Assembly (NCBI GenBank): GCA_964435035.1
Contig: CAYSXR010000001.1
Location: 144,192 to 208,191, forward strand
DNA: 64,000 nt
Origin: an uncultured Gammaproteobacteria bacterium
GTDB lineage: Bacteria; Patescibacteriota; Patescibacteriia; Magasanikbacterales; UBA922
Direction of reading: 5' to 3'
Shown: in pieces, positions 16,574 through 48,159 of the stretch
Position numbering within the stretch: the first letter of the stretch is position 1
How the letters are laid out: the number at the start of each line of letters is the position of its first letter
Translations under genes and position numbers: made by a program
Notes under the pieces: generated by a model
The model's input: the letters and a program-made list of their open reading frames with translations, nothing else
Told to the model about the DNA's origin: nothing
Databases searched by the model: none

Positions 16574-16574
16574 G

Positions 16575-16647
16575 TGACCCCGGTGGGGATCGAACCCACG
16601 ACCATTGGCTTAAAAGGCCACTGCTCTACCAGCTGAGCTACAGGGTC
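16575..16647 (-). tRNA. tRNA-Lys (anticodon UUU)
   Basis: Manual fold of the reverse complement gives a 7-bp acceptor stem, a GGTTCGATCC T-arm, and anticodon loop CU-UUU-AA. 73 nt, no encoded CCA. Confidence 0.85.
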
Positions 16648-21472: not shown

Positions 21473-24400
21473 ATGACTAGATTAACATTTTATCGAAGAC
21501 TTTCAATTGTCTCAGGTTTAGTATTGGTATTACTAAACCATTTTGCGTTTGGTTTTTTGGGATTTTTTATTCCAGTCGCAAAGGCCGATGCGATAACATG
21601 GGTAGGTCCATCAACGGGTTATTGGGATAATCCAACAAATTGGAGTAGTGGCACTATACCAACTGCTTCAGATGAGGTGATAATCTCAGGGGACGACATG
21701 TTTATATTAGCAACATCAACTATTAATTTTGCTTCGCTTACTCTTGCGGGTCCTGATGTGCGTTTCAGTCTGTTGGGGGGTATTGGAACTGGAGGTGACC
21801 TTACGATCTCTGAGAGTTTGTTTATACAATCCACGTCAACACGTCAGACGATCAGTGGGACTTTAACAATTAATGATGGGGTGATGCAGCATCTACAAAA
21901 CACTTCAACAACGTTATATAAGCTTGATTTTGTGGCGGAAAATATTGTTATCGAGCCGGGCGGACATGTACGAGTGGATAATGAGGGTTCACCGGGAGGT
22001 GAAATAGGAGAAGACGGGTATGGAAATGGAGGGGGTGATGGAGATTCAAATATAAGTGCTGGTGCAGGTGGAAGCAATGCTGGGACCGGAGGATCGAGTA
22101 GTTCAGGAAACTATGGAGGGTTTTCAACCTGTACTTTTTCTGATGTTGGACCATCCTATGGCGGAAGTGGGGGAGGCGGAAGTGCTACCTCTACTGGAGG
22201 GGATGGGGGAGGATTTGTGCGTCTTGAAGCAAATAATACATTTACGATAAATGGACGTATTACCGCAGACGCTGATCATACTTCGGGGCAGACTGCAGGC
22301 GAAGGTGCGGGGGGTGGATCTGGAGGAACTATTTATCTAGTCGCTGATACGATTAGCGGAGTTCCAGAAGCTCCAATTTCTGCTCGTGGGGGAAATAGTT
22401 TTGATGCAAATGGAGGAGCTGGAGGTGGTGGGTGTGTCCGCTTACAATATACCACAACAAGTACCATCGATGGTGCAAATATTATTGTTGATGGTGGAGT
22501 TGGTTTTGAAAACGGTGGTGCTGGAGTTGCACTGGTAGAAAAAGAAGATCAGTCAATTCGAAAAATGTATGTAACTGCAACAACAACACTTAATTATGGA
22601 GTTGGACAGCTTTATAGCACTGCTGGTACAAATTTTATTTCCTTATCCGGCGCTGAGGAACTCACGACCTTGTCAGTCTCAACTTCTTCTGTATATATCA
22701 TTGGAGATTTTTTAGGTGCAAGTGAACTCACACTTACGGGGGCTACTCCATTTCAAGGCAGTAGTCCATCAGGTACCGTACGAATTCAGGGTGACGTAAA
22801 ATTAAAGCTGTCTTCAGGGGCAAGTATTGAGGATGTAACTCTGGAACTGTATCACGAAGATGTGTCTCGGCGTGCGCGTCTCGTAGATCGTGCTACAGAC
22901 GAATCAGCTACTCTTGATATTGTAATTGGTGACCAAGGGACGCTTCTTTTAAATAATTTCAATTCCACAACTCCCTTGATGGTTGAGACATTTACTGTTG
23001 CAGCCGGTGGAGTCGTGACTCATGAACAAAATAGTATCTCACCGGAACAAAGAGAAATGGTGAATATACAGGCTGAAAATATTACCATTGAGAGTGGTGG
23101 ATCTATTAATGTAGCTGGAAAAGGATACAGTGGGGGTAGAGGTTTAGGAGGTAGTGGCGATGGGCTTGGTGGTGGAGCCTATACGTCGAATGTAGGTGTA
23201 GGTGCGGGACATGGTGGAGATGGTACAGCAAATAATCTTGATGGCTCGTCTGCTGGAGCTGGTGGCACATCATATTGTGATGTTTCTAATCCTTCTACTA
23301 TTGGTTCAGGGGGAAGCTCAGGGTTGTTTAGTGGGAGCTTAGGGCGTAGAGGTGGAAATGGTGGGGGGATGGTATGGCTCGTAGCGACAAATACAATTAC
23401 GCTTGCAGGAGATATTTTTGCAGATGGCGAAAATGGGTCGTTTGACTCGTATGCAGGTGAAGAAACTTTTGAATCTATTTCCGGTGCAGGTTCAGGGGGG
23501 AGTGTAAAATTATTTGCTCCCACTATTGGAGGAGCAGGAGAAATTTTTGTAAGAGGTGGAAATAATGGGGTTGATCCAAGTCCGGCTCCTTCAGAATATG
23601 GCGGAGGCGGAGGCGGATGTGTATTGATAAACTATACGTATGACAATTCAGTTGTCACATCAAGTATATATATTACTGGAGGTGGACTTGATGCTGGGGT
23701 CGCAGAAGATGGACAATTGAGTATTGTGGAAGAAAATGAAGTTCCTGAGTTGTTTTTGAATTTTCATAAACCGGAATTTGTAGCTCGAGTTACAAGTACT
23801 ATTATTGATGGAGCTGGTGACCTGGCAGTTTCGGGCGATTATGCATATGTGGGAGGATTGATGGGTTCGAGTTTTGCGATTATCAATATCTCTAGTACTA
23901 CCAATCCGGCCGTAGTAGGAACCATAGAAACTACATCTGATTTGGCAGGTATATATGGAGTCGAGGTTTCGGGTAATTATGCGTATGTTGTTAATAGTTT
24001 TGACAATAGTTTTCGAGTGATCGATATTTCTAGTAGTACCAACCCGACTATTGTTGCAGGGATAGAGTTCGATACACCGATTCCAGAATTAATGAGCATT
24101 GCAGTATTAGGGAATTATGCTTATGTGATAGTAGGAGAAGATGGATACAGTTCACTCCGTGTGATAAATATTTCAAATCCGCTTTCTCCAACAGTAGTCG
24201 GGAGTATCATTAATGATTCTGACTTAGATTTTCTGAGTGATATTGTAGTTTCTGGAAGTTATGCATATGTTTCAACATTAGCAGCACAGTTTTCAATTAT
24301 TAATATCTCAAATCCAAGTTCGCCTGCCGTGGTAGGAAGTGTGCATGATACAACAATCCTTGATAATTCATTTGGTGTCGCAGTATCAGGAAATTACGCG

Positions 24401-27400
24401 TATGTAACTTCAGATGATAATAGTTCTGTTGCAGTTATTGATATTTCTGATCCAGAGAATCCGGATATAGTGAAAGTGGTGACTGGTGGTGAGTCGATAG
24501 TTGATAGTCTTCGGATGATTGTGATTGAGGGAGATTATGCGTATGTGGGAATGATTAGCCCTAATCCAGGAATTGGGATAATTGATATTACAAATCCACT
24601 CACTGCTAATTTTGTAGGGTATATTTTAGATCCAGATTTACTCACTACGCCAGCTAGAATGCAGGTAGCAGAGGGGGTGGTGTATATGACAGATTTTTCT
24701 GAGGATTCATTGAATATATTTAATGTATCACTGCCTTATTCGGTAAATCCTATTGTTCCATTTGATATTTCAGATGGTGATCGAGAAACACTCTCGGTGA
24801 AGGCAGAGTTTGTTCCTGGATCATGCGCGTACAGTGGTACGACATATGCAACGTTTGTTACCTCGACCGCAACATCAACCTATGGGGTTGCAATAGATAA
24901 TTCTGCAGTTGATAATCGAAGAATTAAAGATATTATCATTGACCCAGTTTCTGATTTTCCAATTACACAAGTAACCACCACATGGCACACCTCAGTAGAT
25001 ATTCCCGGTGATGAAGGGGAATATTGTATGTTTATGACTCCTTATGACGGTGAAGATGAAGGAATACGTGTAGCGGGTACGCTATTTGTCGATGATCCAT
25101 TACTCGCCCCAAACGCCCCTTCTCTCTCTGCCACCAAAACTCAAACCTCGATTACGCTTTCTTGGCCTGTGGCAAATGGGGCTAATCATTATGTGATTGT
25201 ATCAAGTATTTCGGGTATTCCTACAGAAACAGATGAAACTTCGGTGACTTACGCGGGTTTGGTAGCAGGGAATGAATATACTTTTCAGGTTAAATCGGTG
25301 GATAATTATGGTAATGAAAGTGCGTATTCAGAAGTATTTCCTGTTACTACTGTTGCACTAGGATCCTCTCCTCAACCCAGTGCACCCCCTCCTCCGTCAG
25401 ACACCACTCCTTCATCAACGACGACTTCAACGGTCTCGAATCCTTCTAGTCTCATTGTTATTAATAGTGGAGCATACTATACCAAATCACGAGAAGTGAA
25501 CGTGTTATTTAATACTGATTTTACGTCGGCGTATATGCTCGCAGACACTTTTGATTTTTCAGGAAAGATATACAAACCAATCGTTTCCTCAACAACCTAC
25601 ATACTCACTCCAGGAGACGGGGAAAAAAGAATTTATGCTCGTTTTAGTAATAATTATGGTATTTATGATGCGTATGATGTGATTGTGCTTGATACCGTGC
25701 CACCGAGCCAACCTACTATTAATGCAATTAGTTCTCCTGATTTTGTTCTAAAAACTGAAGGAGTGTATGGGCGAAAGAATACGAGTAGTACTGTGCGCAT
25801 CAAACCAACACTTGGAGGTACTGCTGAGCCAGGAAAACGAATTATGATCACTGTCTCCTATGGAGGAACAAATATGGTGATGATGATGTTAGCTGCAGTA
25901 GAAACATACTACACCACTGCAGACAGTAATGGAAATTGGTCGTTTACGTTTCCGAACGAACTTCAAAATACGTATTATACTATTTCGGTACAAACACAAG
26001 ATGAAGCAGAAAATAACTCAAGTGCAGTAGAAATAGAGCTTGACTTACGTAGTCTGGAGACTCTTCCTTGTACTATAAATTGTGAACCATTAGACGAACC
26101 TCCTCTAGAGGAGCCCCCTGAAGATCTGCTGCCAGTCGAAGAGCCATTAGACGAACTTCCTCCTATTGAAACAGCTGAAGAGATTCCTTCCTGTACGATT
26201 GATTGTGGGGGAGAAGAATCTTCACCTGTAGATACGGGAGGAGAGAGTTCAGGTACTGAAGAAGAAAATACAACTGATGCTACGAGTGGAGGTGATACAG
26301 AGGGTAATGTAGACAATAGTTCAAATGAACCAATAGGCGAGCAAGTTATTTCGAGTATTACTGATTCAGTGTCTATTATTTCAGATACAATTGAAACTTT
26401 TTTTACTGAAGTTGGTAACTTATTACAAGAGATACCTATGGTGCGGGGGATAGTAGAAACTGCATCAGTTGCAGTTGAAAAAACGAGAGAAGTTATTGAT
26501 AATCCAACAATTGAAAAAAGTAATGAAGTAATTGCTGCCCCTATAATCGCTGTAGCTGCAGCAGCAAACGTCGCAGTTGGCGGGGCAGGTCTTCTATCAC
26601 AAGCCATGTTGTATCTTCGTCTTATTTTCTCTCAGCCACTACTTTTACTTAAATTGAGAAAGCGTAAAAGGTGGGGTGTGGTATTCAATGCATACACCAA
26701 ATTACCACTTGATTTAGCAACGGTTCGTCTAGTAAATGGAAAAAGTGATTCAATTATAAGAACACAAGTGACTGATGCAAAAGGTAGATATTTTATGGTT
26801 GCTGAAAATGGTGTATATCGACTTGAAGCAAAAAAGGATGGGTTTGGAACTAATGTTAACGTGACTACGGAGGATTCAGCGTTTCCAAATGTGTACCATG
26901 GAGAAGAGTTGGAATTAGCAGAGGAATCGAATAATCTTAATTACAATATCCCACTCGAACCTATCGTAGAAGAAAAATCAAATACGCACGTGCTCCGAGA
27001 ATATGCGAGGAAAGCTACTCATAAAACGGTTAGTTTGATCGGAGCGGTGGCAACCATTGTTTCGCTGATTATTTCTCCGAAGCCATGGATCACTGCATTG
27101 CTTGTATTCCATATTGTCCTGTATAGCCTCATGAGGCGCCTTGCTCATAAAAAGATCAAAGGAACCTTTGGTTTAGTTACTGATAAAAAAACAGGTAAAG
27201 AGATTGGTAAAGTGGTAATCCGTGTTTTTGATGCAGCGTACAATAAGCTAGTTGAAACCGGAGTTACAGATTCAAAAGGTAGGTATGCAATTCTGGTAGG
27301 TCCAAGTATCTACTATATTACTGCAGAAAAAGAAGGTTTTATTACCTATCAATCACCAACGATAGATTTTTCAAGTGAGAAGACGGATGGTCTCGGAGGT

Positions 27401-27466
27401 GTAATTTCTGAGTCATGTAGTTTAAAACCCATTGATTTTCATGAGAAAAATGGCGACACGCTTTGA
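21473..27466 (+). CDS. Giant cell-surface protein (1997 aa): signal peptide, Gly-rich region, LVIVD-repeat beta-propeller, fibronectin-III domain, acidic Pro/Glu linker, and a C-terminal TM plus two carboxypeptidase-regulatory-like (prealbumin-fold) domains
   Basis: Many GNYAYV...VIDIS...NP repeats (LVIVD type). An FN3-like block (SITLSWP...YTFQVKSVDNYGNES). The C-terminal about 380 aa are paralogous to the C-terminus of the next gene. Confidence 0.85.
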   Translation: MTRLTFYRRLSIVSGLVLVLLNHFAFGFLGFFIPVAKADAITWVGPSTGYWDNPTNWSSGTIPTASDEVIISGDDMFILATSTINFASLTLAGPDVRFSLLGGIGTGGDLTISESLFIQSTSTRQTISGTLTINDGVMQHLQNTSTTLYKLDFVAENIVIEPGGHVRVDNEGSPGGEIGEDGYGNGGGDGDSNISAGAGGSNAGTGGSSSSGNYGGFSTCTFSDVGPSYGGSGGGGSATSTGGDGGGFVRLEANNTFTINGRITADADHTSGQTAGEGAGGGSGGTIYLVADTISGVPEAPISARGGNSFDANGGAGGGGCVRLQYTTTSTIDGANIIVDGGVGFENGGAGVALVEKEDQSIRKMYVTATTTLNYGVGQLYSTAGTNFISLSGAEELTTLSVSTSSVYIIGDFLGASELTLTGATPFQGSSPSGTVRIQGDVKLKLSSGASIEDVTLELYHEDVSRRARLVDRATDESATLDIVIGDQGTLLLNNFNSTTPLMVETFTVAAGGVVTHEQNSISPEQREMVNIQAENITIESGGSINVAGKGYSGGRGLGGSGDGLGGGAYTSNVGVGAGHGGDGTANNLDGSSAGAGGTSYCDVSNPSTIGSGGSSGLFSGSLGRRGGNGGGMVWLVATNTITLAGDIFADGENGSFDSYAGEETFESISGAGSGGSVKLFAPTIGGAGEIFVRGGNNGVDPSPAPSEYGGGGGGCVLINYTYDNSVVTSSIYITGGGLDAGVAEDGQLSIVEENEVPELFLNFHKPEFVARVTSTIIDGAGDLAVSGDYAYVGGLMGSSFAIINISSTTNPAVVGTIETTSDLAGIYGVEVSGNYAYVVNSFDNSFRVIDISSSTNPTIVAGIEFDTPIPELMSIAVLGNYAYVIVGEDGYSSLRVINISNPLSPTVVGSIINDSDLDFLSDIVVSGSYAYVSTLAAQFSIINISNPSSPAVVGSVHDTTILDNSFGVAVSGNYAYVTSDDNSSVAVIDISDPENPDIVKVVTGGESIVDSLRMIVIEGDYAYVGMISPNPGIGIIDITNPLTANFVGYILDPDLLTTPARMQVAEGVVYMTDFSEDSLNIFNVSLPYSVNPIVPFDISDGDRETLSVKAEFVPGSCAYSGTTYATFVTSTATSTYGVAIDNSAVDNRRIKDIIIDPVSDFPITQVTTTWHTSVDIPGDEGEYCMFMTPYDGEDEGIRVAGTLFVDDPLLAPNAPSLSATKTQTSITLSWPVANGANHYVIVSSISGIPTETDETSVTYAGLVAGNEYTFQVKSVDNYGNESAYSEVFPVTTVALGSSPQPSAPPPPSDTTPSSTTTSTVSNPSSLIVINSGAYYTKSREVNVLFNTDFTSAYMLADTFDFSGKIYKPIVSSTTYILTPGDGEKRIYARFSNNYGIYDAYDVIVLDTVPPSQPTINAISSPDFVLKTEGVYGRKNTSSTVRIKPTLGGTAEPGKRIMITVSYGGTNMVMMMLAAVETYYTTADSNGNWSFTFPNELQNTYYTISVQTQDEAENNSSAVEIELDLRSLETLPCTINCEPLDEPPLEEPPEDLLPVEEPLDELPPIETAEEIPSCTIDCGGEESSPVDTGGESSGTEEENTTDATSGGDTEGNVDNSSNEPIGEQVISSITDSVSIISDTIETFFTEVGNLLQEIPMVRGIVETASVAVEKTREVIDNPTIEKSNEVIAAPIIAVAAAANVAVGGAGLLSQAMLYLRLIFSQPLLLLKLRKRKRWGVVFNAYTKLPLDLATVRLVNGKSDSIIRTQVTDAKGRYFMVAENGVYRLEAKKDGFGTNVNVTTEDSAFPNVYHGEELELAEESNNLNYNIPLEPIVEEKSNTHVLREYARKATHKTVSLIGAVATIVSLIISPKPWITALLVFHIVLYSLMRRLAHKKIKGTFGLVTDKKTGKEIGKVVIRVFDAAYNKLVETGVTDSKGRYAILVGPSIYYITAEKEGFITYQSPTIDFSSEKTDGLGGVISESCSLKPIDFHEKNGDTL

Positions 27467-27627
27467 ATATAATTACCGAAGAAGTAGAAAAGATTGTGTG
27501 ATGTAGTTAGTATGGTCTATTCACAAGAATATATGGGAAGTATTGATTAGTAGCTGGTGTGAATGTTTAAAAGTCGATTTATTAGTAGAATAAACGTATA
27601 CTTATTAGGGTAATCTATTATTACAAC

Positions 27628-29610
27628 ATGAGTAGTTTGATTAAAAAAATAATTTTCGCAGCTTTTCTTCTGTGGCTTGTGCCTTCAGTAATTTTTGCTT
27701 CAGATAGTAATGGTACAATCAATACAAGTCATAAATATGGATGGGGAGAAAACTTGGGTTGGATTAATTTTGCCCCAACTGATGGGTCGAGTAATTATCA
27801 CGGGCTTACCATTACTGATTCTGCTGTTACTGGCTATGCATGGTCAGAAGCCTATGGCTGGATTAATTTTGCTCCAAGTAATGGCGGAGTAACTAATAGC
27901 TGTACCGGACAACTTGGTGGTTGGGCATGGTCTACACAATTGGGCTGGATTTCCATGAGCGGAGTAACAATTGGATCGACCGGAGAATTTAATGGTGTAT
28001 CAGGTGGAACAACGCTTCCTTCGGGTAGAATTACCTTTGATTGTGATAATTGTGATGTGCGTACTGATTGGATTCCTTGCGCTGAGCGTGAAGAAGAAGG
28101 TGGTGGAGGCCCTCCGCCCACCTGTTCCAATGGCGCGTCAGATTATCCAACCTGTACACCACCCACTCCACCAACCTGTTCTAATGGTGCTTCGGATTAT
28201 CCTACCTGCACACCTCCTCCAGATCCCACCTGTTCCAATGGCGCATCAGATTATCCAACCTGTACACCACCCACTCCACCTCCAGATCCAGTCTGCTCTA
28301 ATGGCGCATCAGACTACCCAACTTGTACGCAGCCACCAGATCCCACCTGTTCCAATGGTGCATCAGACTACCCAGCTTGTACTGCCTCTACCGATGGGGG
28401 TGATGGAGGTACCGGAGAGGGTGATGGAGGTGCTAGTGATGGGGGAGAAAGTGAAGGGGCGGGGAGTAGTGGAGGCGGAGGTGGTGGTGTTGCCACAGAA
28501 ATAATTTCAAATATTACTGATTCAGTTGGGGTAGTGGCTGATGCAACAGTAGCTGTTTTGCAAGATGTAGCAGAAGTGCTGGTTACTATTCCCGGAGTAC
28601 AAACTGTAGTTAATGCGGCCCAAGTTGCTATAGAAAGAACAGAAAAAGTTATTAATAATCCTACGGTTGAAAAAATAGATGAAGCAGTTTCAACTCCAGT
28701 GCTCACAGCAACAGCTGTAGTAAACGTAGTAGTAGGTGGTGCAACATTATTTTCGCAGATTTTAATATTTCTCCGTTTATTGTTTTTGCAGCCCTTACTA
28801 TTATTATTCAAACGTCATAAACAAAAAACATGGGGAACGGTTTTCAATAGTCATACAAAGCAACCTCTTGATTTGGCAATGGTGCGTCTGGTGCATGGAG
28901 AAAATGACACAATTGTACGCACCCAGGTGACTGATGCCCAGGGTCGTTATTTTATGGCTGCAGGAAGTGGTACGTATATTTTGAAGACTACTAAAGAAGG
29001 TTTTGGTCCACATAGTGGAACGCAAGCTGAAGATTCGGTATATCCAAATTTGTATCGTGGAGAAAAATTGGAATTAGTGGACAGAGAAAGTGAACTTAAT
29101 TACAACATCCCGCTTGAACCAGTGTATGAGGCAAAGAGTACTGCTGATATAATCAAAGAATATTCGAGAAAAACATTCCAAAAAACGTTGAGTTTGATTG
29201 GTGCAATTGCAACGGTGGCATCACTGATTATTTCTCCAAACATTTGGATGGCTGCTCTTTTGGTAGTACATCTGCTTATCTATGTGGTCATGAAACGGTT
29301 TGCACAAAAAAAAGTAAAAGGTGATCGTGGAATAGTAGTGGATAGTAAAACTAAAAAACCAATGAAGAAGGTGGTGATCCGTGTGTTTGATAATGCATAC
29401 AATAAATTGGTGGACACTGCAATTACTGATAACAATGGGTGTTATGCGGTTCTAGTGGGTCCTAGTACTTATTATATTACTGCAGAAAAAGAAGGGTATG
29501 CTCCATATCAGTCTGATACGATTGATCTAACGAGTAAAAAGACTAATGGAATTGGAGGTGTTATTACAGAAAACTTCTCTTTGATGTCAGTTGATGAAAA
29601 GAAAAAGTAA
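27628..29610 (+). CDS. Surface protein (660 aa) with signal peptide, GWINFAP repeats, a 5x Cys-containing tandem peptide repeat, a Gly-rich spacer, and the same C-terminal anchor module as the upstream giant protein
   Basis: Long blocks of alignable identity to the C-terminus of the 21473-27466 product (e.g. ISSITDSV...VGGAGLLSQAMLYLRLIFSQPLLLL... versus ISNITDSV...VGGATLFSQILIFLRLLFLQPLLLL...). Confidence 0.8.
   Translation: MSSLIKKIIFAAFLLWLVPSVIFASDSNGTINTSHKYGWGENLGWINFAPTDGSSNYHGLTITDSAVTGYAWSEAYGWINFAPSNGGVTNSCTGQLGGWAWSTQLGWISMSGVTIGSTGEFNGVSGGTTLPSGRITFDCDNCDVRTDWIPCAEREEEGGGGPPPTCSNGASDYPTCTPPTPPTCSNGASDYPTCTPPPDPTCSNGASDYPTCTPPTPPPDPVCSNGASDYPTCTQPPDPTCSNGASDYPACTASTDGGDGGTGEGDGGASDGGESEGAGSSGGGGGGVATEIISNITDSVGVVADATVAVLQDVAEVLVTIPGVQTVVNAAQVAIERTEKVINNPTVEKIDEAVSTPVLTATAVVNVVVGGATLFSQILIFLRLLFLQPLLLLFKRHKQKTWGTVFNSHTKQPLDLAMVRLVHGENDTIVRTQVTDAQGRYFMAAGSGTYILKTTKEGFGPHSGTQAEDSVYPNLYRGEKLELVDRESELNYNIPLEPVYEAKSTADIIKEYSRKTFQKTLSLIGAIATVASLIISPNIWMAALLVVHLLIYVVMKRFAQKKVKGDRGIVVDSKTKKPMKKVVIRVFDNAYNKLVDTAITDNNGCYAVLVGPSTYYITAEKEGYAPYQSDTIDLTSKKTNGIGGVITENFSLMSVDEKKK
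28120..28392 (+). repeat. Coding tandem repeat, 5 copies of about 51-66 bp (peptide CSNGASDYPTCTPPTPP(P)DPT)
   Basis: Direct reading: acctgttccaatggcgcgtcagattatccaacctgtacacc... repeated five times with third-position variation. Confidence 0.7.
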
Positions 29611-29664: not shown

Positions 29665-32600
29665 ATGAAATTGAGTATAAAAAAAGGTAAAAATAAAAAA
29701 AATAGTGCACGAGAATCCGCACATATTTTGTGGTTTGAAGAAATTGGAATTACTGATATTCCATTGGTTGGTGGAAAAAATGCGTCATTGGGGGAAATGT
29801 ATACTGGACTCAGATCAAAAAATATTGCAGTTCCGAATGGTTTTGCAATTACCGCAAAAGCGTATTGGGATTTTTTCGAAGCTCATGGATTAAATAAGAT
29901 AATCAAGAAAGAAATTAAAGGATTGAATGTACTTAAAATTAAAGATTTGAATCGAGTGGGAAAAAAGATACGATCACTCATTATTAACGCAAAATTTCCT
30001 GACGATTTACAAAAAGAAATTATTGAAGCGTACGAATCACTTAAAAAACAAGAAGGAGTAACTCATCTTTCAGTAGCGGTGCGATCGAGTGCAACTGCAG
30101 AAGATTTACCTGATGCAAGCTTTGCGGGTCAGCAAGAAACATATTTGAATATCGAAGGCCATGATGAATTATTGATTGCGGTAAAAAAATGTATTGCATC
30201 TCTATTCACTGATCGTGCGATTTCTTATCGTGAAACCAAAGGATTTGATCACATGGCAGTTGCTCTCTCGGTGACCGTGCAGACTATGGTTCGGTCAGAT
30301 GTGGGAGTCTCAGGAGTAATGTTCACGATTGATACTGAATCTGGTTTCCCTGGAGTAGTGCTTATTAATGCGTCATACGGGTTGGGTGAATATGTAGTCA
30401 AAGGTCAGGTAACTCCGGATCAGTTTTATGTGTTTAAAGAAGGTGTAAGAAAAGGGAAATCAGCAATTATCAGTAGAATCTTTGGTTCAAAAGAAGTGAA
30501 GTTGGTATATGGAAAACGCCTCACTACTCAAAATATTGTTCCGGCTGCTGATCGTCATAGATTGTGTATTTCAGATGAAGATGTGCTCACTCTTGCAAAA
30601 TGGGGGATGGAGATTGAGAAATTTTATAATAAAGCCCAAGATATTGAATGGGCAAAAGATGGTGTTACTGGGAAATTATATATCGTTCAGGCACGACCTG
30701 AAACAGTTCAGTCCCAAGCAAATCATGCGGTTATTGAGTCGTACGAGCTGAAAGAAAAAGGAAAATTAATTGCTCGCGGTATCTCAATTGGACAAAAAAT
30801 TGGGGCAGGTGTCGCGCGTATTATCAATGATCCTCGAGACATGAAGCTGTTTAAAAAAGGTGAAGTATTGGTAACCCGTATCACTGATCCTGATTGGGAG
30901 CCGATTATGCGTCTTGCGAGTGCAATTGTAACTGAACAAGGAGGAAAAACAAGTCATGCAGCAATTGTATCTCGTGAATTGGGAGTCCCTTGTGTAGTGG
31001 GTACCAAACAAGCACGTGCACTGATCAAAACAGGAGTAAAAGTAACGGTTTCGTGTGCTGAAAGCGAAGAGGGGCATGTGTATAAAGGCATGCTTCCGTT
31101 TGAAGTAAAAAAAACCACAATTACTGATATTGCAAAGACCAAGACTAAAATCATGATGAATGTGGGAGATCCGGATCATGCATTTGCATTATCATATTTA
31201 CCAAACGATGGAGTAGGACTTGCGCGCGAAGAATTTATATTTTCTAATTTTATTAGAATTCATCCACAAGCTCTCCTTAATTTTGACAAACTTAAAGATA
31301 AAAAAGCAAAAAAGAAAATTTCTGAATTAACTGTCGGGTACAAAGATAAACGCCAGTACGGAGTGGATAAACTCGCCGATGGTATTGCACGTATTGCTGC
31401 TGCATTCTACCCTCGCGATGTCATTGTACGTCTGTCTGATTTCAAAACCAATGAATACGCCACCTTGATTGGGGGGCTCGAATTTGAACCTAAAGAAGAA
31501 AATCCAATGATTGGTTGGCGTGGAGCTTCTCGGTATTATTCAGAGGAATATAAGACTGCATTTGGTATCGAGTGTGAAGCATTGAAAAAAGTTCGAAGCG
31601 ATTGGGGACTCAATAATGTAATTGTCATGGTGCCATTTTGTCGTACTCCAGAAGAAGGGAAGAATGTATTGAAAACCATGGCGGATTTTGGACTCAAACA
31701 AGGTGAAGATAAATTACAGGTCTATGTCATGTGTGAAATCCCATCAAACGTCATACTTGCAGAAGAATTCGCGAAAATTTTTGATGGATTCAGTATCGGA
31801 TCTAATGATTTAACGCAGTTGACGCTTGGGGTAGATCGTGATTCTGCATTAGTAAGCCATGTGTATGATGAGAAGAATAGTGCGGTAATGACACTGATCA
31901 AGCAGGTGATCAGAGTAGCTCATAAACATAAACGAAAAATTGGAATTTGTGGCCAAGCGCCAAGTGATTATCCAGAGTTTGCTGAATTTCTTGTGCGTGA
32001 AGGAATCGATAGCATCTCACTCAATCCAGATACGGTATTAGCAACACGCGCACGCATTGCAAAGACAGAAAAGAAAGTAGGTATGCGTGGCGGTACCACG
32101 AATCATAAATTTTTGACACTAGTATTTCTACTTGGGGTTTGCTCAGCAAGTATGATACTTCTTGGTGGTGGTTGCGGTGCAATCAAATCTGACAATTCGG
32201 TAAATACAATTACAACAGAATTAAGTCCGGCGCAAGTGAGAGCACAGTTTGAAGCGCGTGCATTGAGTGAGGCAGAAGAGCGTATTGAATCGAAACGAAG
32301 CACAATGACTATCTCCTCGCTAGGGTCATTTAAAGTTTCGTATCCACAAACGTGGGCAGTTGAAGAGCTTTCGAGTGTGCCAGGATATATGTTTTCAAAA
32401 CCTGAATCAAAAGCGCAGGTCGTAGTGGTAAAACAGAAAAAGTCTTCGACTACTGTGTCAGATGGTACTTCCTCCGTAGAGACTGCCGATACAGGTTTGT
32501 CTGCTGGAACAGTTGATAAGAATACTGCAAGCTCATACATCATAGTTGGTGAAAATACGCTAGAAGTCGAATATCGAAAAACTGAAGAGGGAACTGTTCT

Positions 32601-32802
32601 TACTGCAGTACATATTCCTCTTGATGAGGAAGAAGAATTATTTGTGTATGGGACACCAGGAAATGAATTTAATGACATTGTAGAAAGTCTTACGTTCACT
32701 GATCCTGAGGTGGCACCACCTCAAATATTACCAGATGCAGGAGAAGCTTGTATCCATGTAACACCTGATTCGGGTGGAAGTGATGCTGTTAGTTGTTACT
32801 AA
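29665..32802 (+). CDS. ppsA: Phosphoenolpyruvate synthase (pyruvate,water dikinase), continuous in frame with a 239-aa C-terminal lipoprotein-like module
   Basis: The first about 806 aa carry the ATP-grasp, phosphohistidine (GGKTSHAAIVSRELGVPCVVG) and PEP-utilizer (GSNDLTQLTLGVDRDS) domains. An internal ATG at 32083 begins MRGGTTNHKFLTLVFLLGVCSAS...GGGC, a signal peptide/lipobox-like segment, with no intervening stop codon. Confidence 0.85.
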   Translation: MKLSIKKGKNKKNSARESAHILWFEEIGITDIPLVGGKNASLGEMYTGLRSKNIAVPNGFAITAKAYWDFFEAHGLNKIIKKEIKGLNVLKIKDLNRVGKKIRSLIINAKFPDDLQKEIIEAYESLKKQEGVTHLSVAVRSSATAEDLPDASFAGQQETYLNIEGHDELLIAVKKCIASLFTDRAISYRETKGFDHMAVALSVTVQTMVRSDVGVSGVMFTIDTESGFPGVVLINASYGLGEYVVKGQVTPDQFYVFKEGVRKGKSAIISRIFGSKEVKLVYGKRLTTQNIVPAADRHRLCISDEDVLTLAKWGMEIEKFYNKAQDIEWAKDGVTGKLYIVQARPETVQSQANHAVIESYELKEKGKLIARGISIGQKIGAGVARIINDPRDMKLFKKGEVLVTRITDPDWEPIMRLASAIVTEQGGKTSHAAIVSRELGVPCVVGTKQARALIKTGVKVTVSCAESEEGHVYKGMLPFEVKKTTITDIAKTKTKIMMNVGDPDHAFALSYLPNDGVGLAREEFIFSNFIRIHPQALLNFDKLKDKKAKKKISELTVGYKDKRQYGVDKLADGIARIAAAFYPRDVIVRLSDFKTNEYATLIGGLEFEPKEENPMIGWRGASRYYSEEYKTAFGIECEALKKVRSDWGLNNVIVMVPFCRTPEEGKNVLKTMADFGLKQGEDKLQVYVMCEIPSNVILAEEFAKIFDGFSIGSNDLTQLTLGVDRDSALVSHVYDEKNSAVMTLIKQVIRVAHKHKRKIGICGQAPSDYPEFAEFLVREGIDSISLNPDTVLATRARIAKTEKKVGMRGGTTNHKFLTLVFLLGVCSASMILLGGGCGAIKSDNSVNTITTELSPAQVRAQFEARALSEAEERIESKRSTMTISSLGSFKVSYPQTWAVEELSSVPGYMFSKPESKAQVVVVKQKKSSTTVSDGTSSVETADTGLSAGTVDKNTASSYIIVGENTLEVEYRKTEEGTVLTAVHIPLDEEEELFVYGTPGNEFNDIVESLTFTDPEVAPPQILPDAGEACIHVTPDSGGSDAVSCY

Positions 32803-32812: not shown

Positions 32813-32838
32813 AAACACCTCCTTGTGGGGTGTTTTTG
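32813..32838 (+). terminator. Rho-independent terminator after ppsA
   Basis: aaacacctccttgtggggtgtttttg (7-bp stem aaacacc/ggtgttt plus T-run). Confidence 0.55.
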
Positions 32839-32898
32839 TAATACTTTGTTCTCATTGAATAAAACATAAAAAATTGGTATTCTAAGAATACTAATTCT

Positions 32899-34224
32899 AT
32901 GAAAAAATGGTCCCAAAAAATAACTTGCATTCTCATGCTTTTTAGCATGTCTATTGTGGTTTTTTTTGGTAGACCTGTGTATAGTTCAATCGAAGAACAG
33001 AAAGAGTTACAACAGGAGCTCAAAAATATCGAAGCAGAGATTGGGAAGCTTGAACAAGAAATTACAACTACAAAAGGCGAAAAGAAAACACTTGCAAGTA
33101 AGATTCAACAACTTAAACAAGAACAAAATAAAATTAAGCTTCAGATACAGGCAACTGCCCTGCACATTAAAGACCTGGAAAATAAAATTGATGTCACTCT
33201 TGATGAAATACAAAAGAATGAAGAAAAAAGTGAGGAGCTTAAAAATAATTTAGGCGTATTACTTCGTCTCTTGTACCAGAGAAATCAGGAAGCGCGGGCG
33301 TTTCGATTAATATTGCAGGGAAAGCTTAGTGATGCGATTGTTGAAGTAAGAAATTTGGAACGGTTGTCTGATTCAATCGGGGAGTTACTGGATGATGCAA
33401 AAAAAGTACGGAAAGATCTTGAAGTGCAGAAAGAGAAGTATGCGACTGACCAGGAAGACGCAAGTGAACTTTTGAAGCTTGTAGAAGCGGAGGGTGGTTC
33501 ACTTACGGGTAAGCTGCAGGAACAAGCAAAATTATTGAAGAGTACACAAGGCAAAGAAGAAAATTATCAGAGTCAGCTTCAGGATAATAAAAAACGCGCA
33601 GCAGAAATCAAGAGTCGAATTTATGAGCTTCTTGATGTGGGTACGCAAATTACCTTTGGTGAAGCGGTAACCATTTCTGAATGGGTGAGTGGACAGATTG
33701 GTGTGCCAGCTTCGCTTCAGCTCGCAATTCTGACCCAAGAATCAAATCTAGGTAAAAATGTAGGAACCTGTAATCGTCTGGGCGACCCCCCTGAAAAAAG
33801 CTGGAAAGTGATTATGAAGCCTGAACGGGACCAAGAGCCGTTCAAAAAAATTACCGAAGAATTGGGAAAAGATCCGGATATTACACCGGTGTCTTGTCCT
33901 ATGCGGAATAAAGATGGTAGTCAGCTCGGATGGGGAGGTGCTATGGGTCCAGCACAATTTATTCCTTCGACATGGGTGGGGTATAAGGCTAAAGTTTCAG
34001 CAATTACGGGTAAAACTCCAGCAGACCCTTGGGATATTCGAGATGCATTTCTCGCCTCTGCCTTGCTTCTCAAGGCAAATGGAGCTGATGGTACTCGTGA
34101 CGGGAATTGGAAAGCCGCAATGCGCTATTTTTCAGGTGGAATCAATCCAAAATATAGTTTTTATGGGGATAATGTGATAGCTCTTTCGGATAAGTACGAG
34201 GAAGATATTAAAGCGTTGAAATAG
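32899..34224 (+). CDS. Secreted coiled-coil protein with a C-terminal lytic-transglycosylase-like domain (441 aa)
   Basis: Signal peptide, about 250 aa of heptad-rich coiled coil, then LQLAILTQESNLG and GAMGPAQFIPSTW motifs reminiscent of the MltB/SLT glycosidase fold. Confidence 0.65.
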   Translation: MKKWSQKITCILMLFSMSIVVFFGRPVYSSIEEQKELQQELKNIEAEIGKLEQEITTTKGEKKTLASKIQQLKQEQNKIKLQIQATALHIKDLENKIDVTLDEIQKNEEKSEELKNNLGVLLRLLYQRNQEARAFRLILQGKLSDAIVEVRNLERLSDSIGELLDDAKKVRKDLEVQKEKYATDQEDASELLKLVEAEGGSLTGKLQEQAKLLKSTQGKEENYQSQLQDNKKRAAEIKSRIYELLDVGTQITFGEAVTISEWVSGQIGVPASLQLAILTQESNLGKNVGTCNRLGDPPEKSWKVIMKPERDQEPFKKITEELGKDPDITPVSCPMRNKDGSQLGWGGAMGPAQFIPSTWVGYKAKVSAITGKTPADPWDIRDAFLASALLLKANGADGTRDGNWKAAMRYFSGGINPKYSFYGDNVIALSDKYEEDIKALK

Positions 34225-34298
34225 CTCATAGCCAATAGGAGGAAAATGCGAATCGGTACTCTTAATTGGCTTTCTTGCTTTCTCTCTATGAACTAATT
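34224..34298. repeat. Second copy of the AGTTCATAGCYAATAG palindromic element, filling the gap between two convergent genes
   Basis: gctcatagccaataggaggaaaatgcgaatcggtac...ttaattggct...ctctatgaactaatt. It overlaps both stop codons. Confidence 0.45.
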
Positions 34299-34866
34299 AA
34301 AATTGTTTCATTATCCACATCACCTCGTCAGGGTAGGATGGGATCACGGTGCCATTGTAGTAGTATAATTTTCTTTTGACCGAAGGAGTCGAATACCATC
34401 GAGCAGTTCTCGGATTATCTCCACACAAATTTTTGCCTACTTCCTGTATTGCTTCATCAATATTTTTGAAAGGAATTTGGGCTCCTCCCCAACCAAAAGG
34501 ATTATTATACTGCATCCGCTTTCCACCAGTGGATTCGCGTACTGCAATTGCAGGAAGCAATCGCCAATCCAGTCCGCAGCTATCAGCAACTGCAATAAAA
34601 CTTTTACCATATCCAGCAAGCGGCATGTTATATTTTTCAAAATACGCATCAATCCTGTCTGCTCGCTCGTCGGCAATTGTTGGCTCTGTATATATGCGTG
34701 CAATAATATATATTGTAAGTCCTCCGAGTATACTCAAGATAAGAATTGTGCTCATGAGGTGTCTGCGATAACGAAGAAAAAGTACGGGGAATACTGGCTG
34801 TTTTTTGATGCGACGGTTTTTTTTCTGTTGAATAGAAAGAGTACTTCGTTTTTTTGTACGGGGCAT
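34297..34866 (-). CDS. Membrane-anchored glucosaminidase-like (PF01832-type) peptidoglycan hydrolase domain protein (189 aa)
   Basis: Basic N-terminus, a TM helix, then AIAVRESTGGKRMQYNNPFGWGG, which matches the ESgwG...NNlFG core of mannosyl-glycoprotein endo-beta-N-acetylglucosaminidase domains. Confidence 0.5.
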   Translation of the reverse strand: MPRTKKRSTLSIQQKKNRRIKKQPVFPVLFLRYRRHLMSTILILSILGGLTIYIIARIYTEPTIADERADRIDAYFEKYNMPLAGYGKSFIAVADSCGLDWRLLPAIAVRESTGGKRMQYNNPFGWGGAQIPFKNIDEAIQEVGKNLCGDNPRTARWYSTPSVKRKLYYYNGTVIPSYPDEVMWIMKQF

Positions 34867-36417: not shown

Positions 36418-36492
36418 AGTGAAATAGTTCTAAAATAAATAACTCGCACGTAGGAGTTATTCTGGTGGACAGGTTTTTAGTAAAACAATAAG

Positions 36493-36566
36493 CGGGCTGG
36501 ACGGGACTCGAACCCGCAACTTCTGCCGTGACAGGGCAGTGCTCTAACCAGTTGAACTACCAGCCC
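36493..36566 (-). tRNA. tRNA-Asp (anticodon GUC)
   Basis: The reverse complement folds with acceptor gggctgg/ccagccc, a GGTTCGAGTCC T-arm and anticodon loop CU-GUC-AC. 74 nt. Confidence 0.85.
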
Positions 36567-38647: not shown

Positions 38648-38776
38648 ACTTCCTCCTTAAAAAAGTTGTATTGGCAGTGCCACGAGGGCGCGCTGTGCTT
38701 AGTAATGTTGCTGCCACGTAAAGTCGCTACGCTCCTACGTGGCACTCAAAGGCGCTCTGAGAATCGCGCCTTTTCG

Positions 38777-39173
38777 TGGAGATGCCGGGAGTCGAACCCG
38801 GGTCTAGACGGGTTACCCCGATACTCTACATGTGTATCGATGTTTGGTGTTTCGCATACGAATATGAAACATCGAAAAATATCGCATGCTATCGCATGAA
38901 TGGTTTCAACTAACTTCCATACGAACAAAGTTAGTCTACGCTCGAACTAGGGTTGGCACCGTGGATCCACCATCGAGTATCGTGGGTACGATGGTCGTAG
39001 TGATTTAGGCTACAACAGAAGCAAAGCTAGGCATACTGAAAGCTTTCGCTACAGTGTTTTTAGCTCGCTCGAACAAGTTTGCACTTGTGGAATTGCCTAT
39101 TTGTTACAGAGACAGGCACTCTGACATGCATATACAAGATAACAGAATCCATCTATCGAAGCCTGTCATCCCC
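38777..39173 (-). ncRNA. ssrA: tmRNA (SsrA), about 397 nt
   Basis: 5' GGGGAUGACAGGCUUCGAUAG... pairs with 3' ...GGUUCGACUCCCGGCAUCUCCA(CG), giving a 7-bp acceptor stem and a T-arm GGUUCGACUCC. It sits directly upstream of smpB. The tag reading frame is not securely assigned. Confidence 0.8.
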
Positions 39174-39198: not shown

Positions 39199-39690
39199 TT
39201 AGTCGTCTCTTCCGTGCTTCAATATTCGTTGGAGCGATCGTTTGCTCTCTCGTTCTTTTATCGTACGGCGCTTGTCATGGGTTTTTTTACCTTTGGCAAT
39301 ACCGATCTCAAGTTTGATTAAAGTTCCCTTAGTATAGAGGGAAAGTGGCACGATTGTCAAGCCTTTTTCCTCGGTTTTTCCGCGTAAATAATTGATTTCT
39401 TTGGTACTCAAAAGTAATTTTCTGGTGGCATCGGGGACATAATGGGGATTGGTCGCGTACCGATAGGCTCCAATATGCATGTTTACGATTGTCGCACTTC
39501 GGCCTCTCACCATCACAAAACTCCCGTCTAATTTGGCACTGCCATTGCGGATAGATTTTACCTCGGCTCCAGTCAATACCAAACCTGCCTCGAGACTCTC
39601 AAGGATTTCATAGTCGAATCGTACTTTTTTATGAGTGGCGAGTGTAGGCATAATCAGTGCCAAGTATAGCGTATTTTTGCTATTTTGCAA
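39199..39690 (-). CDS. smpB: SsrA-binding protein SmpB
   Basis: VRFDYEILE..GLVLTGAEVKS...KLLL conserved core; 163 aa. Confidence 0.9.
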   Translation of the reverse strand: MQNSKNTLYLALIMPTLATHKKVRFDYEILESLEAGLVLTGAEVKSIRNGSAKLDGSFVMVRGRSATIVNMHIGAYRYATNPHYVPDATRKLLLSTKEINYLRGKTEEKGLTIVPLSLYTKGTLIKLEIGIAKGKKTHDKRRTIKERESKRSLQRILKHGRDD

Positions 39691-46240: not shown

Positions 46241-46416
46241 CATTTTGATATAGAGAAGAAAAATCACTGATAGCAGTCGGTGATTTTTTGTTTTTTTAAG
46301 GTGTTTGGGCTAGAAATGTGCTAAAAAGTATGAGAGTAGTCAAAAGGGGCTACACCCTTTACTTTTTGTCAAAATTTGCATAAAGTACGTTAATGCTTAT
46401 TGTGGCAGGGGTATAC

Positions 46417-48104: not shown

Positions 48105-48159
48105 ACCTCAACCCAACTAGTCCGACCTCCCTCGGGAGGTCGGACACAGGAGAACAGAC

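What the first reader, a model, noticed from the sequence alone, without database searches (positions are those of the whole stretch)
29665..32802. PEP synthase reads through into a lipoprotein-like module without a stop codon
A complete PpsA (about 806 aa) is followed in frame by 239 aa. These begin at an internal ATG (32083) with a textbook signal-peptide/lipobox-like segment (LVFLLGVCSAS...GGGC) and continue as a Ser/Thr-rich extracytoplasmic-looking domain. It could be a genuine fusion, which would be odd for a cytoplasmic enzyme. It could be two genes where the ppsA stop was lost by mutation or sequencing error. It could also be a downstream lipoprotein translated independently from the internal start.
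Basis: seen in the sequence. Interest (0 to 1): 0.5.

Follow-up and report, generated by a model that had tools for sequence, protein, structure and literature searches.

The report
PEP synthase fused to exported lipoprotein-like tail
This is a real gene fusion, conserved across a whole clade of tiny Candidate Phyla Radiation (CPR) bacteria, not an error: an intact PEP synthase continues through a membrane-crossing, lipoprotein-type signal into a PsbP-like outer domain, and that outer tail persists even where the enzyme has died or been deleted.

Summary
Window 29665-32802 (+) is one 1045-aa ORF: a complete, catalytically intact PpsA (aa 1-806) followed in frame by 239 aa.

It is not an assembly error. 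The same protein was assembled from two other sequencing runs. In addition, 116 of 121 closest relatives (59-77% identity, mostly Candidatus Magasanikbacteria, contigs up to 1.17 Mb) carry the extension.

The ATG at 32083 is not conserved, and no internal start/SD signal recurs.

At least 25 further cluster representatives at the same locus have lost the PpsA catalytic motifs. Their bodies are only 19-48% identical to the window's, yet they keep junction and tail. One genome deleted the body in frame, retaining the ppsA start and the tail.

Best reading: one polypeptide with PpsA inside the cell and the tail exported. The tail is separately selected and depends on the ppsA start. Lipidation and cleavage at Cys837 are plausible but untested.

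The parts
29665..32802 (+). Whole fused ORF, 1045 aa (ATG to TAA)
   Evidence: ORF list and sequence. The identical protein is on contigs L001 and L002.
29665..32082 (+). PpsA body (aa 1-806), catalytically intact pyruvate, water dikinase
   Evidence: NF005057 1191 bits and TIGR01418 1145 bits, both well above cut-off. GGKNASLGEM at aa 36, GKTSHAAI at aa 427 and GICGQ at aa 760 are all present. The full-length AF2 model is confident here.
29761..30735 (+). PPDK_N (ATP/AMP-binding) domain, aa 33-357
   Evidence: Pfam PF01326, E 4.6e-121
30850..31059 (+). PEP-utilizers mobile (phospho-His) domain, aa 396-465; His431 at 30955-30957
   Evidence: Pfam PF00391, E 2.5e-24. The TSH motif is kept in 118 of 118 close relatives.
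31132..32070 (+). PEP-utilizers_C (PEP/pyruvate-binding) domain, aa 490-802; Cys762 at 31948-31950
   Evidence: Pfam PF02896, E 1.4e-66. The GICGQ motif is kept in 118 of 118 close relatives.
32068..32109 (+). Positively charged n-region of the internal signal-anchor (aa 802-815, EKKVGMRGGTTNHK). It contains the non-conserved Met807 (ATG 32083-32085).
   Evidence: The family consensus is EKTLGKxGKKTxxK. Net charge averages +4.1 in the 15 aa before the hydrophobic stretch. AF2 pLDDT is below 50 at aa 808-812.
32110..32163 (+). Hydrophobic h-region / single transmembrane helix (aa 816-833)
   Evidence: Kyte-Doolittle 19-residue maximum is 2.34 at aa 816-834, and the next best in the protein is 1.14. 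AF2 predicts a helix at 814-833. The uncharged stretch averages 21 aa across 120 relatives.
32164..32175 (+). Lipobox-like motif G834-G835-G836-C837
   Evidence: G834, G836 and C837 are invariant in 72 full-length relatives and in 35 diverse tails. A PROSITE-type lipobox pattern matches 120 of 121 relatives, with the Cys at a fixed offset in 110.
32176..32226 (+). Disordered tether (aa 838-854)
   Evidence: AF2 pLDDT is below 50 for aa 834-850. This stretch is variable in length and sequence in alignment A1.
32227..32685 (+). Long helix (aa 855-876) plus Mog1/PsbP-like beta domain (aa 877-1007), with the conserved YPxxW motif (P894, W897)
32440..32532 (+). Ser/Thr-rich insertion loop specific to this subclade (aa 926-956)
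   Evidence: It is present only in the window's subclade in alignment A1 and has low pLDDT.
32686..32799 (+). C-terminal Cys-pair region (aa 1008-1045; Cys1029 at 32749-32751, Cys1044 at 32794-32796). It is the 2-Cys form of a Cys-rich module that has 4 Cys in most relatives.
   Evidence: C1029 and C1044 are invariant in 72 relatives. The same module occurs as tandem repeats in other secreted proteins or lipoproteins, e.g. P0148. It has no Pfam family, and the model is low-confidence here.
32813..32840 (+). Terminator-like hairpin plus U-run directly after the stop codon of the fused ORF
   Evidence: RNA fold -11 kcal/mol, z -1.95. No terminator-like or +-strand promoter-like site lies between the PpsA body and the tail.

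Best explanation
The ORF is a genuine, anciently fixed fusion translated as one polypeptide from the ppsA start codon.

Topology (inferred): the N-terminal 806 aa are an active cytoplasmic PEP synthase. Residues 802-837 act as an internal, N-in/C-out signal-anchor built like a lipoprotein signal peptide, with a basic n-region, a hydrophobic helix of about 20 aa and an invariant G-x-G-C. This exports the last ~200 aa, which are a flexible tether, a helix, a Mog1/PsbP-like domain and a disulfide-type Cys pair, to the outer face of the cell membrane.

Functional relationship (inferred from comparative data): the two halves are functionally separable. The tail is the evolutionarily constant part. 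It has no start codon of its own, so it depends on translation through ppsA. This explains why lineages that lost PpsA catalysis keep an open but fast-evolving and shortened PpsA-like leader, or keep only the first ~50 codons.

Maturation (untested): the tail is probably matured at Cys837, by lipidation and cleavage by signal peptidase II. That would yield a membrane-associated PpsA and a separate surface lipoprotein. My estimate for this step is about 45%.

Shown here: the fusion, its conservation, intact catalytic motifs, the single hydrophobic helix, the fold of the tail, and the dead-enzyme and deletion variants.
For: Reality and conservation:
- One ORF. A chance stop-free extension has P about 8.5e-08.
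- The identical protein was assembled from two other runs; L002 differs at 7 nt.
- 116 of 121 closest relatives are 970-1076 aa long.

Signal-anchor:
- 120 of 121 match a lipobox pattern, with a fixed Cys offset in 110.
- Net charge is +4.1 before the hydrophobic stretch and -1.0 after the Cys.
- It is the only TM-grade segment in the protein.
- G834, G836 and C837 are invariant.
- AF2 predicts helix 814-833 flanked by disordered linkers.

Exported-type tail:
- Mog1/PsbP fold shared with the lipoprotein DcrB and the lipid-binding LpqN.
- An invariant Cys pair.
- Stand-alone relatives with their own N-terminal TM helix or a signal peptide plus lipobox.

No independent start:
- Met807 is not conserved.
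- No recurrent start/SD signal in 5 loci.
- No internal promoter or terminator.

Separability and dependence on the ppsA start:
- P0140 at the syntenic locus joins PpsA aa ~5-56 (score 77 against shuffles 24.6 +/- 4) directly to an intact tail.
- At least 25 cluster representatives have lost GGKN, and most have lost the phospho-His and the catalytic Cys, but keep junction and tail at orthologous loci.
- Body/junction/tail identity is 24/67/53% for P0126 vs P0127. It is 51/61/62% for P0134 vs the intact P0086, whereas intact pairs with 60-80% tail identity have about 90% body identity.
Against: - No experimental or proteomic evidence exists for topology, lipidation or cleavage.
- I could not test whether Lgt and LspA exist in these genomes. 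No motif for either is in the window.
- The only canonical N-terminal lipoprotein precursors in the window lie in an atypical 55-58% GC block, and none turned up in about 75 kb of relatives' loci.
- The lipobox has Gly at -3, where Leu is most usual (my knowledge). It also fits the small -3/-1 rule of signal peptidase I.
- Most dead-enzyme forms retain at least 690 aa of body rather than collapsing as in P0140. The body may therefore still have a structural role, which fits an uncleaved protein better.
- One low-coverage contig (L004) has TGA at the junction where its close relative L003 has TGG. The two halves can therefore at least occur split.
- P0090 is a close PpsA that lacks the tail.
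Confidence: 0.7

Rival explanations
1. Uncleaved bitopic receptor-enzyme. The protein stays in one piece as a membrane-tethered PpsA whose outer PsbP-like domain senses or binds something outside and controls, localises or oligomerises the cytoplasmic enzyme. Cys837 is conserved for a reason other than cleavage, for example lipid attachment without cleavage or an intersubunit disulfide.
For: - The halves are strictly collinear in more than 116 intact-enzyme relatives.
- Most dead-enzyme forms still keep a full-length, recognisably PpsA-like body of 690-797 aa, which suggests a scaffold role.
- N-in/C-out single-pass proteins with large cytoplasmic N-domains are common (my knowledge).
Against: - The tail survives loss of catalytic residues and even deletion of the body, so it cannot act only through PpsA activity.
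- A plain anchor does not need an invariant G-x-G-C at the helix end.
- The Cys module has an even number of Cys (2 or 4), which leaves C837 without an obvious partner.
Confidence: 0.22
2. Two proteins by internal initiation. PpsA and a lipoprotein are made separately, with the lipoprotein translated from ATG 32083, and the missing stop is incidental.
For: - If translation began at Met807, the product would be a textbook lipoprotein precursor, with Arg at position 2 and Cys at position 31.
- In L004 a TGA separates the halves while the tail ORF stays intact.
Against: - Met807 is K/R/G in relatives.
- There is no SD-like motif upstream of it and no recurrent internal start in 5 loci.
- There is no internal promoter-like site.
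- The reading frame is preserved across hundreds of divergent sequences, including dead-enzyme forms.
- The natural deletion P0140 keeps the ppsA start.
Confidence: 0.05
3. Artefact: a sequencing or assembly error, or a very recent private stop-loss mutation, joins ppsA to a separate downstream lipoprotein gene.
For: This architecture is unusual for a cytoplasmic enzyme. One related contig (L004) does have a stop at the junction.
Against: - The identical ORF is in two other assemblies, one from a slightly different strain.
- The fusion is conserved in relatives down to 59% identity, on contigs up to 1.17 Mb, and in more distant dead-enzyme forms.
- The junction sequence itself is among the most conserved parts.
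Confidence: 0.01

Closest known systems
Canonical PEP synthase PpsA (pyruvate, water dikinase, EC 2.7.9.2; NCBIfam NF005057 / TIGR01418)
   Same: It has the same three domains in the same order. It scores far above the equivalog cut-offs. The ATP-site GGKN, the phospho-His (TSH) and the catalytic Cys (GICGQ) are present.
   Different: Canonical PpsA ends at about aa 790-800 and is soluble (my knowledge). This one continues for 239 aa through a membrane helix into an exported-type domain.
Bacterial lipoprotein precursors (Lgt/LspA substrates; PROSITE PS51257-type signal)
   Same: It has the same basic n-region, ~20-aa uncharged h-region and small-small-Cys lipobox followed by a disordered tether.
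   Different: The signal starts about 800 residues into the protein instead of within the first 35. Position -3 is Gly rather than the usual Leu. Processing is untested.
Mog1/PsbP-like extracytoplasmic proteins (cyanobacterial PsbP, DcrB, LpqN, Apa, T6SS immunity proteins Tsi3/TplEi, BT_1490)
   Different: The window's tail has no significant sequence match to Pfam PsbP families. Its best PDB sequence match is PsbP at E 0.34. It also carries an extra N-terminal helix and a C-terminal Cys module, and it is fused to an enzyme.
Polyproteins split at an internal signal peptide (e.g. the Bradyrhizobium FbcH cytochrome b/c1 precursor; my knowledge, not checked here)
   Same: In both, one ORF has an internal signal sequence that exports the C-terminal part. 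The proposed cleavage here would yield two proteins.
   Different: That precedent uses signal peptidase I and two subunits of one complex. Here the motif is lipoprotein-type and the halves look functionally unrelated. A full-text search for 'internal lipobox' found no paper.
Pseudoenzymes (catalytically dead homologues retained in genomes)
   Same: Orthologous-locus relatives (group B) keep a PpsA-like body without the catalytic residues.
   Different: The window's own protein is not one of them, because its motifs are intact. In group B the dead body may be retained mainly as the translated leader of the tail rather than for a new activity.

Membership tests
PEP synthase PpsA (NF005057 / TIGR01418) | Whole-protein score above the curated equivalog cut-off, with near full-length model coverage | tested here: met
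   1191 bits against cut-off 598, and 1145 bits against cut-off 740. Model positions 3-793 of 798 are covered.
PEP synthase PpsA (NF005057 / TIGR01418) | Catalytic residues: the phospho-carrier His in TSH and the Cys in GICGQ, plus the ATP-site GGKN | tested here: met
   GGKNASLGEM at aa 36, GKTSHAAI at aa 427 and GICGQ at aa 760. They are conserved in 114-118 of 118 close relatives.
PEP synthase PpsA (NF005057 / TIGR01418) | Enzymatic activity (pyruvate + ATP + H2O -> PEP + AMP + Pi) | not testable with these tools
   This requires a biochemical assay.
Bacterial lipoprotein precursor (PROSITE PS51257-type rule) | Lipobox pattern {DERK}(6)-[LIVMFWSTAG](2)-[LIVMFYSTAGCQ]-[AGS]-C preceded by a charged n-region | tested here: met
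   It is matched at aa 827-837 in the window and in 120 of 121 relatives.
Bacterial lipoprotein precursor (PROSITE PS51257-type rule) | Cys lies within residues 15-35 of the translated precursor (N-terminal signal) | tested here: not met
   The Cys is residue 837 of the ORF. The rule would be met (position 31) only if translation began at the non-conserved ATG 32083.
Bacterial lipoprotein precursor (PROSITE PS51257-type rule) | The organism encodes Lgt and signal peptidase II (LspA) | not tested
   No Lgt or LspA motif is in the 64-kb window and neither Pfam family is listed in the fetched flanks. Whole genomes could not be searched.
Bacterial lipoprotein precursor (PROSITE PS51257-type rule) | Diacylglyceryl modification of the Cys and cleavage in front of it | not testable with these tools
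   This needs labelling, globomycin treatment or mass spectrometry.
Mog1/PsbP-like fold (Pfam PsbP_2 PF18933 / PsbP PF01789) | Sequence match above the Pfam gathering score | tested here: not met
   The window tail has no Pfam hit at E <= 1. Four of 35 family tails give weak PsbP_2 hits, best 0.0044. Stand-alone relatives P0197 and P0199 pass (27.9 and 33.3 bits against 27).
Mog1/PsbP-like fold (Pfam PsbP_2 PF18933 / PsbP PF01789) | Three-dimensional similarity of a confident model to solved members | tested here: met
Single-pass N-in/C-out membrane protein | One TM-grade hydrophobic segment obeying the positive-inside rule | tested here: met
   Kyte-Doolittle 2.34 at aa 816-834, against a next best of 1.14. 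Charge is +4.1 before and -1.0 after.
Single-pass N-in/C-out membrane protein | Experimentally determined topology | not testable with these tools
   This needs PhoA/LacZ or protease-accessibility assays.
Dead-PpsA plus tail pseudoenzyme group (group B, defined here) | Loss of the GGKN, TSH and/or GICGQ motifs, with junction and tail retained | tested here: not met
   The window protein retains all three motifs, so it belongs to the intact group A.

The most novel reading that the evidence does not exclude
An 800-residue cytoplasmic enzyme serves as the n-region of a lipoprotein signal peptide. The single polypeptide is inserted through an internal signal-anchor, lipidated at Cys837 and cut by signal peptidase II. 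One ORF thus yields a membrane-held PEP synthase and a surface lipoprotein. The arrangement is evolutionarily entrenched, so lineages that no longer need PpsA must keep a decaying PpsA reading frame open merely to translate the lipoprotein.
Probability: 0.35. Interest if true: 0.75.

Novelty: new variant of a known kind. Interest (0 to 1): 0.6.

Why it matters
1. Annotation and metabolism. Source pipelines label both the intact and the dead forms 'pyruvate, water dikinase'. Metabolic reconstructions of these CPR genomes would credit PEP synthesis to lineages whose protein has lost the ATP site, the phospho-His and the catalytic Cys.

2. Cell biology. If the invariant lipobox about 800 residues into a protein is used, the lipoprotein machinery can act on deeply internal signals. 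It would be a simple bacterial example of two differently localised proteins made from one ORF.

3. Evolution. The series of intact fusion, dead-enzyme fusion and in-frame-deleted leader plus tail is a natural illustration of how a fusion can make one gene hostage to another's start codon.

4. CPR biology. The tail is a conserved, clade-specific surface module in organisms thought to live attached to hosts (my knowledge). It makes a defined candidate for envelope or host-interface function.

Tried and rejected
Failed or wasted attempts:
- The search for related loci with the tail alignment failed because no stretch was conserved enough.
- Two hand-pasted degenerate DNA patterns for the junction were mis-spaced: 113 nt and 107 nt instead of 108 nt. 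The 20 genome loci (L006-L025) and 46 metagenome loci (L029-L074) are chance matches, as verified, and must be ignored.
- The afdb50 fold library was unavailable.
- Literature searches found nothing relevant on Magasanikbacteria plus PEP synthase, internal signal peptide/lipoprotein/polyprotein, Patescibacteria plus lipoprotein signal peptidase, 'internal lipobox', CPR plus PEP synthase plus transmembrane, CPR plus Lgt, or Saccharibacteria plus lspA/lgt.

Considered and rejected:
- Assembly error.
- A chance open frame.
- A conserved internal start.
- An internal promoter or terminator.
- A significant RNA structure at the junction (z -1.58).

Evidence I first took as support and then downgraded:
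- I first took three canonical lipoprotein precursors in the window as evidence of a lipoprotein pathway. All three lie in a 55-58% GC block that may be foreign or chimeric.
- The tail-based NJ tree puts the dead-enzyme forms in about 10 groups. It is rough and has no support values, so I do not claim a number of independent losses.
Full report
**1. The observation**

Window 29665-32802 (+) is one 1045-aa ORF with an ATG start and a TAA stop.
- NCBIfam PpsA equivalogs NF005057 (1191 bits, cut-off 598) and TIGR01418 (1145 bits, cut-off 740) cover aa 17-806, almost the full model (positions 3-793 of 798).
- Pfam finds PPDK_N at aa 33-357, the mobile domain at 396-465 and PEP-utilizers_C at 490-802.
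- The ATP-site GGKNASLGEM, the phospho-His motif GKTSHAAI and the catalytic Cys motif GICGQ are all present.

PpsA is therefore complete and looks active. A further 239 codons follow in frame. From base composition, a stop-free run of that length has P about 8.5e-08. None of 20000 shuffles was stop-free, and the other five frames carry 3-22 stops.

**2. Not an error, and not private to this genome**

The exact 1045-aa protein is also encoded on two Logan contigs from other runs. L001 is 100% identical to the window over 7749 nt. L002 differs at 7 of 6367 positions yet encodes the identical protein.

Among the 121 closest PpsA relatives with a recognisable C-terminus, 116 are at least 970 aa long. 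These relatives are 59-77% identical to the window's protein, are mostly labelled Candidatus Magasanikbacteria or Patescibacteria, and sit on contigs up to 1.17 Mb. An exhaustive profile search with the tail found more fusions among representatives of 50%-identity clusters.

**3. Anatomy of the junction**

After the PpsA end (SLNPDTV..TRERIA) the family consensus reads EKTLGKxGKKTxxK, then about 20 uncharged residues, then L-G-[AG]-G-C.
- A PROSITE-type lipobox pattern matches 120 of 121 relatives, and the Cys is at the same offset in 110.
- The uncharged stretch averages 21 aa.
- Net charge is +4.1 in the 15 residues before the hydrophobic stretch and -1.0 in the 15 after the Cys.
- G834, G836 and C837 are invariant in 72 full-length relatives and in 35 diverse tails.
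- Residues 816-834 are the only TM-grade stretch in the protein (Kyte-Doolittle 2.34; next best 1.14).
- The full-length AlphaFold model (mean pLDDT 83.7) shows the last PpsA helix at 788-804, a floppy stretch at 808-812, a helix at 814-833, and a disordered tether at 834-850 that starts exactly at GGGC.

This is the layout of a lipoprotein signal peptide, placed about 800 residues into the protein.

**4. The tail**

The tail-only model (mean pLDDT 80.7, core above 90) has a long helix and a beta-rich domain.
- Foldseek agrees, with BT_1490 at 4e-05 and plant PsbP at 1.5e-04.
- At sequence level the window's tail has no Pfam hit. Four family members give weak PsbP_2 hits. The best PDB sequence match is PsbP 2xb3 at E 0.34.
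- Homologous stand-alone proteins P0197 and P0199 pass the PsbP_2 gathering score.

The C-terminus carries two invariant Cys residues, C1029 and C1044. In most relatives this module has four Cys (C.QMITYAR......C..F.TPCDVP.GW.VC). The same module occurs as tandem repeats in other secreted proteins or lipoproteins, for example five copies in P0148. It has no Pfam family.

A PsbP-like fold, paired cysteines and stand-alone relatives with N-terminal signals all point to an extracytoplasmic location.

**5. Is the tail translated on its own?**

- Met807 (ATG 32083) is K, R or G in relatives.
- At DNA level, none of five loci (window, L003, L027, L075, L076) shows a recurrent in-frame start with an SD-like motif in the n-region.
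- No +-strand promoter-like or terminator-like site lies between body and tail. The RNA fold around the ATG is not significant (z -1.58). A terminator-like hairpin plus U-run follows the final stop.
- One exception exists. The 2-kb contig L004 has TGA where its close relative L003 has TGG, exactly at the junction, with the tail still in frame and intact. This may be a real nonsense variant or an error in a low-coverage assembly.

**6. Natural experiments**

(a) Tail-only form. P0140 (300 aa, locus L027) sits at the syntenic position: P-type ATPase, a 145-aa gene on the opposite strand, pyruvate kinase, P0140, a 186-aa gene, ABC ATPase, L20, a 72-aa gene, IF3, SmpB (window context). Its first 51 aa align to PpsA residues 5-56 (score 77, against shuffles of 24.6 +/- 4.0) and lead straight into the n-region, helix, GGGC and an intact tail. 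That tail is 40-49% identical to the other subclade tails. This is an in-frame deletion of the enzyme body that kept the ppsA start.

(b) Tail-less form. P0090 (814 aa, locus L026) is a close PpsA that ends at EKSLIKKFSFRQLLTLLLSY and is followed by a small ORF and tRNA-like sequence, with no tail.

(c) Dead-enzyme forms (group B). At least 25 cluster representatives with the tail have a PpsA-like body only 19-48% identical to the window's.
- By alignment, the ATP-site GGKN is lost in all. The phospho-His is lost in most (kept in P0131, P0133, P0157 and P0185). The catalytic Cys is lost in most (kept in P0134, P0185 and P0252).
- By contrast, 114-118 of 118 close relatives of the window keep all three motifs.
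- Group B occupies the orthologous locus. L075 reads FtsA, FtsZ, NrdR, a 98-aa gene, pyruvate kinase, P0126. L076 reads P0151, a 38-aa ORF, L20, a 72-aa gene, IF3, SmpB.
- Measured against the intact P0061, group A averages 73% body identity and 41% tail identity. Group B averages 35% and 32%.
- In close pairs, P0134 vs the intact P0086 gives body 51%, junction 61% and tail 62%. P0126 vs P0127 gives 24%, 67% and 53%. Intact pairs with 60-80% tail identity have about 90% body identity.
- Group-B bodies are also shorter than group A's ~796-800 aa. My estimate from the lipobox positions is about 690-797 aa.
- A rough NJ tree of the tails scatters group B among group A. It has no support values, so I do not claim a number of independent losses.

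**7. Interpretation**

Shown:
- The fusion is real, old and conserved.
- The window's enzyme half is intact.
- A single hydrophobic helix with an invariant lipobox-like end separates it from a PsbP-like, Cys-paired tail.
- Junction and tail remain constrained when the enzyme is dead or deleted.

Inferred:
- The topology is N-in/C-out, with the tail exported.
- The protein is translated as one polypeptide from the ppsA start.
- The tail has a function independent of PpsA catalysis, and it has become dependent on the ppsA start. That dependence would explain why dead bodies are kept as open, fast-evolving, shrinking reading frames.

Open:
- The protein may be lipidated at Cys837 and cut by signal peptidase II, which I estimate at about 45%. 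It may be cut by signal peptidase I, since G-x-G also fits the -3/-1 rule. Or it may stay uncut as a membrane-tethered PpsA.
- I could not test for lgt or lspA in these genomes.
- The window's only canonical lipoprotein precursors lie in an atypical high-GC block.
- About 75 kb of relatives' loci showed none, which is too small a sample to decide.

**8. Comparison with known systems**

The enzyme half meets every testable criterion for PpsA membership. The junction works like a lipoprotein signal peptide but fails the defining positional criterion, because the Cys is at residue 837 rather than 15-35. I therefore do not file the ORF as a standard lipoprotein precursor. The tail shares the Mog1/PsbP fold with the lipoprotein DcrB and the lipid-binding LpqN, but is not a sequence-level member of the Pfam families. 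Polyproteins split at internal signal peptides exist (FbcH, from my knowledge), but I found no report of an internal lipobox or of a membrane-anchored PEP synthase in the searchable literature.

**9. Verdict**

The finding is confirmed and is more interesting than an assembly artefact. It is a clade-wide architecture that appears to be undescribed, and it comes with a series of dead-enzyme and deletion derivatives. It is a new variant built from known parts, not a new kind of system. Interest 0.6.

Noticed in passing
window 46000-56000: A block of about 10 kb has 55-58% GC in a window that is otherwise about 40% GC, with long ORFs on both strands. It may be a horizontally acquired island or a chimeric assembly. 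It contains the window's only three canonical N-terminal lipoprotein precursors (49686-51452, 51914-52651, 52999-55041).
   Followed up: partly
window 19915-21360 and 21473-29610: Pyruvate kinase lies 8 kb upstream of ppsA. In relatives (L026, L027, L075) it is one gene away from the ppsA-tail gene or directly abuts it. In the window two large surface-protein genes lie between them: a 1997-aa LVIVD/Big_13/fn3 protein and a 660-aa CarboxypepD_reg protein.
   Followed up: partly
window 28112-28382: A 54-nt tandem repeat (4.9 copies) inside the upstream 660-aa gene encodes PTCSNGASDYPTCTPP-type Cys/Pro repeats. It coincides with a local GC peak of up to 57%.
   Followed up: no
L004 351-353 versus L003 2255-2257: L004 has an in-frame TGA exactly at the PpsA/tail junction where the close relative L003 has TGG (Trp), and the tail ORF downstream is intact. 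This is either a real nonsense polymorphism that splits the fusion or an error in a 2-kb low-coverage contig.
   Followed up: partly
P0148, and P0156, P0158, P0159, P0164, P0168, P0172 (one search hits): The C-terminal Cys-rich module (C.QVI.Y......GEC..YPTPCDVP.G) occurs as 2-6 tandem copies in unrelated secreted proteins or lipoproteins. It has no Pfam family and appears to be an uncharacterised disulfide-type repeat domain.
   Followed up: partly
P0127, P0272, P0273, P0274 (group B and its cluster members): JGI/IMG names dead-enzyme fusion proteins 'pyruvate, water dikinase' although the catalytic motifs are lost. This is a likely systematic misannotation in CPR metabolic reconstructions.
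   Followed up: partly
window 38776-39173 (-) and 39199-39690 (-): The tmRNA gene (tag peptide ANLFERAKNTVAKAFSMPSFASVVA) lies directly next to smpB. tRNA-Asp is at 36492-36566 (-) and tRNA-Lys at 16574-16647 (-).
   Followed up: no
window 32899-34224 (+) and 34297-34866 (-): The gene after the fusion encodes a 441-aa coiled-coil protein with a weak SLT_2 transglycosylase match and an N-terminal signal-like segment. It is followed by a 189-aa protein with no Pfam hit on the opposite strand. Both are syntenic in L001, L002 (where the 189-aa gene is cut by the contig end), L003 and L005, but the first is absent from L027.
   Followed up: no
L003 1817-1826: A run of N inside ppsA in GCA_964457885.1 explains why that genome's fusion gene was called as two overlapping pieces (630 aa and 363 aa). 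It is not a real split.
   Followed up: yes
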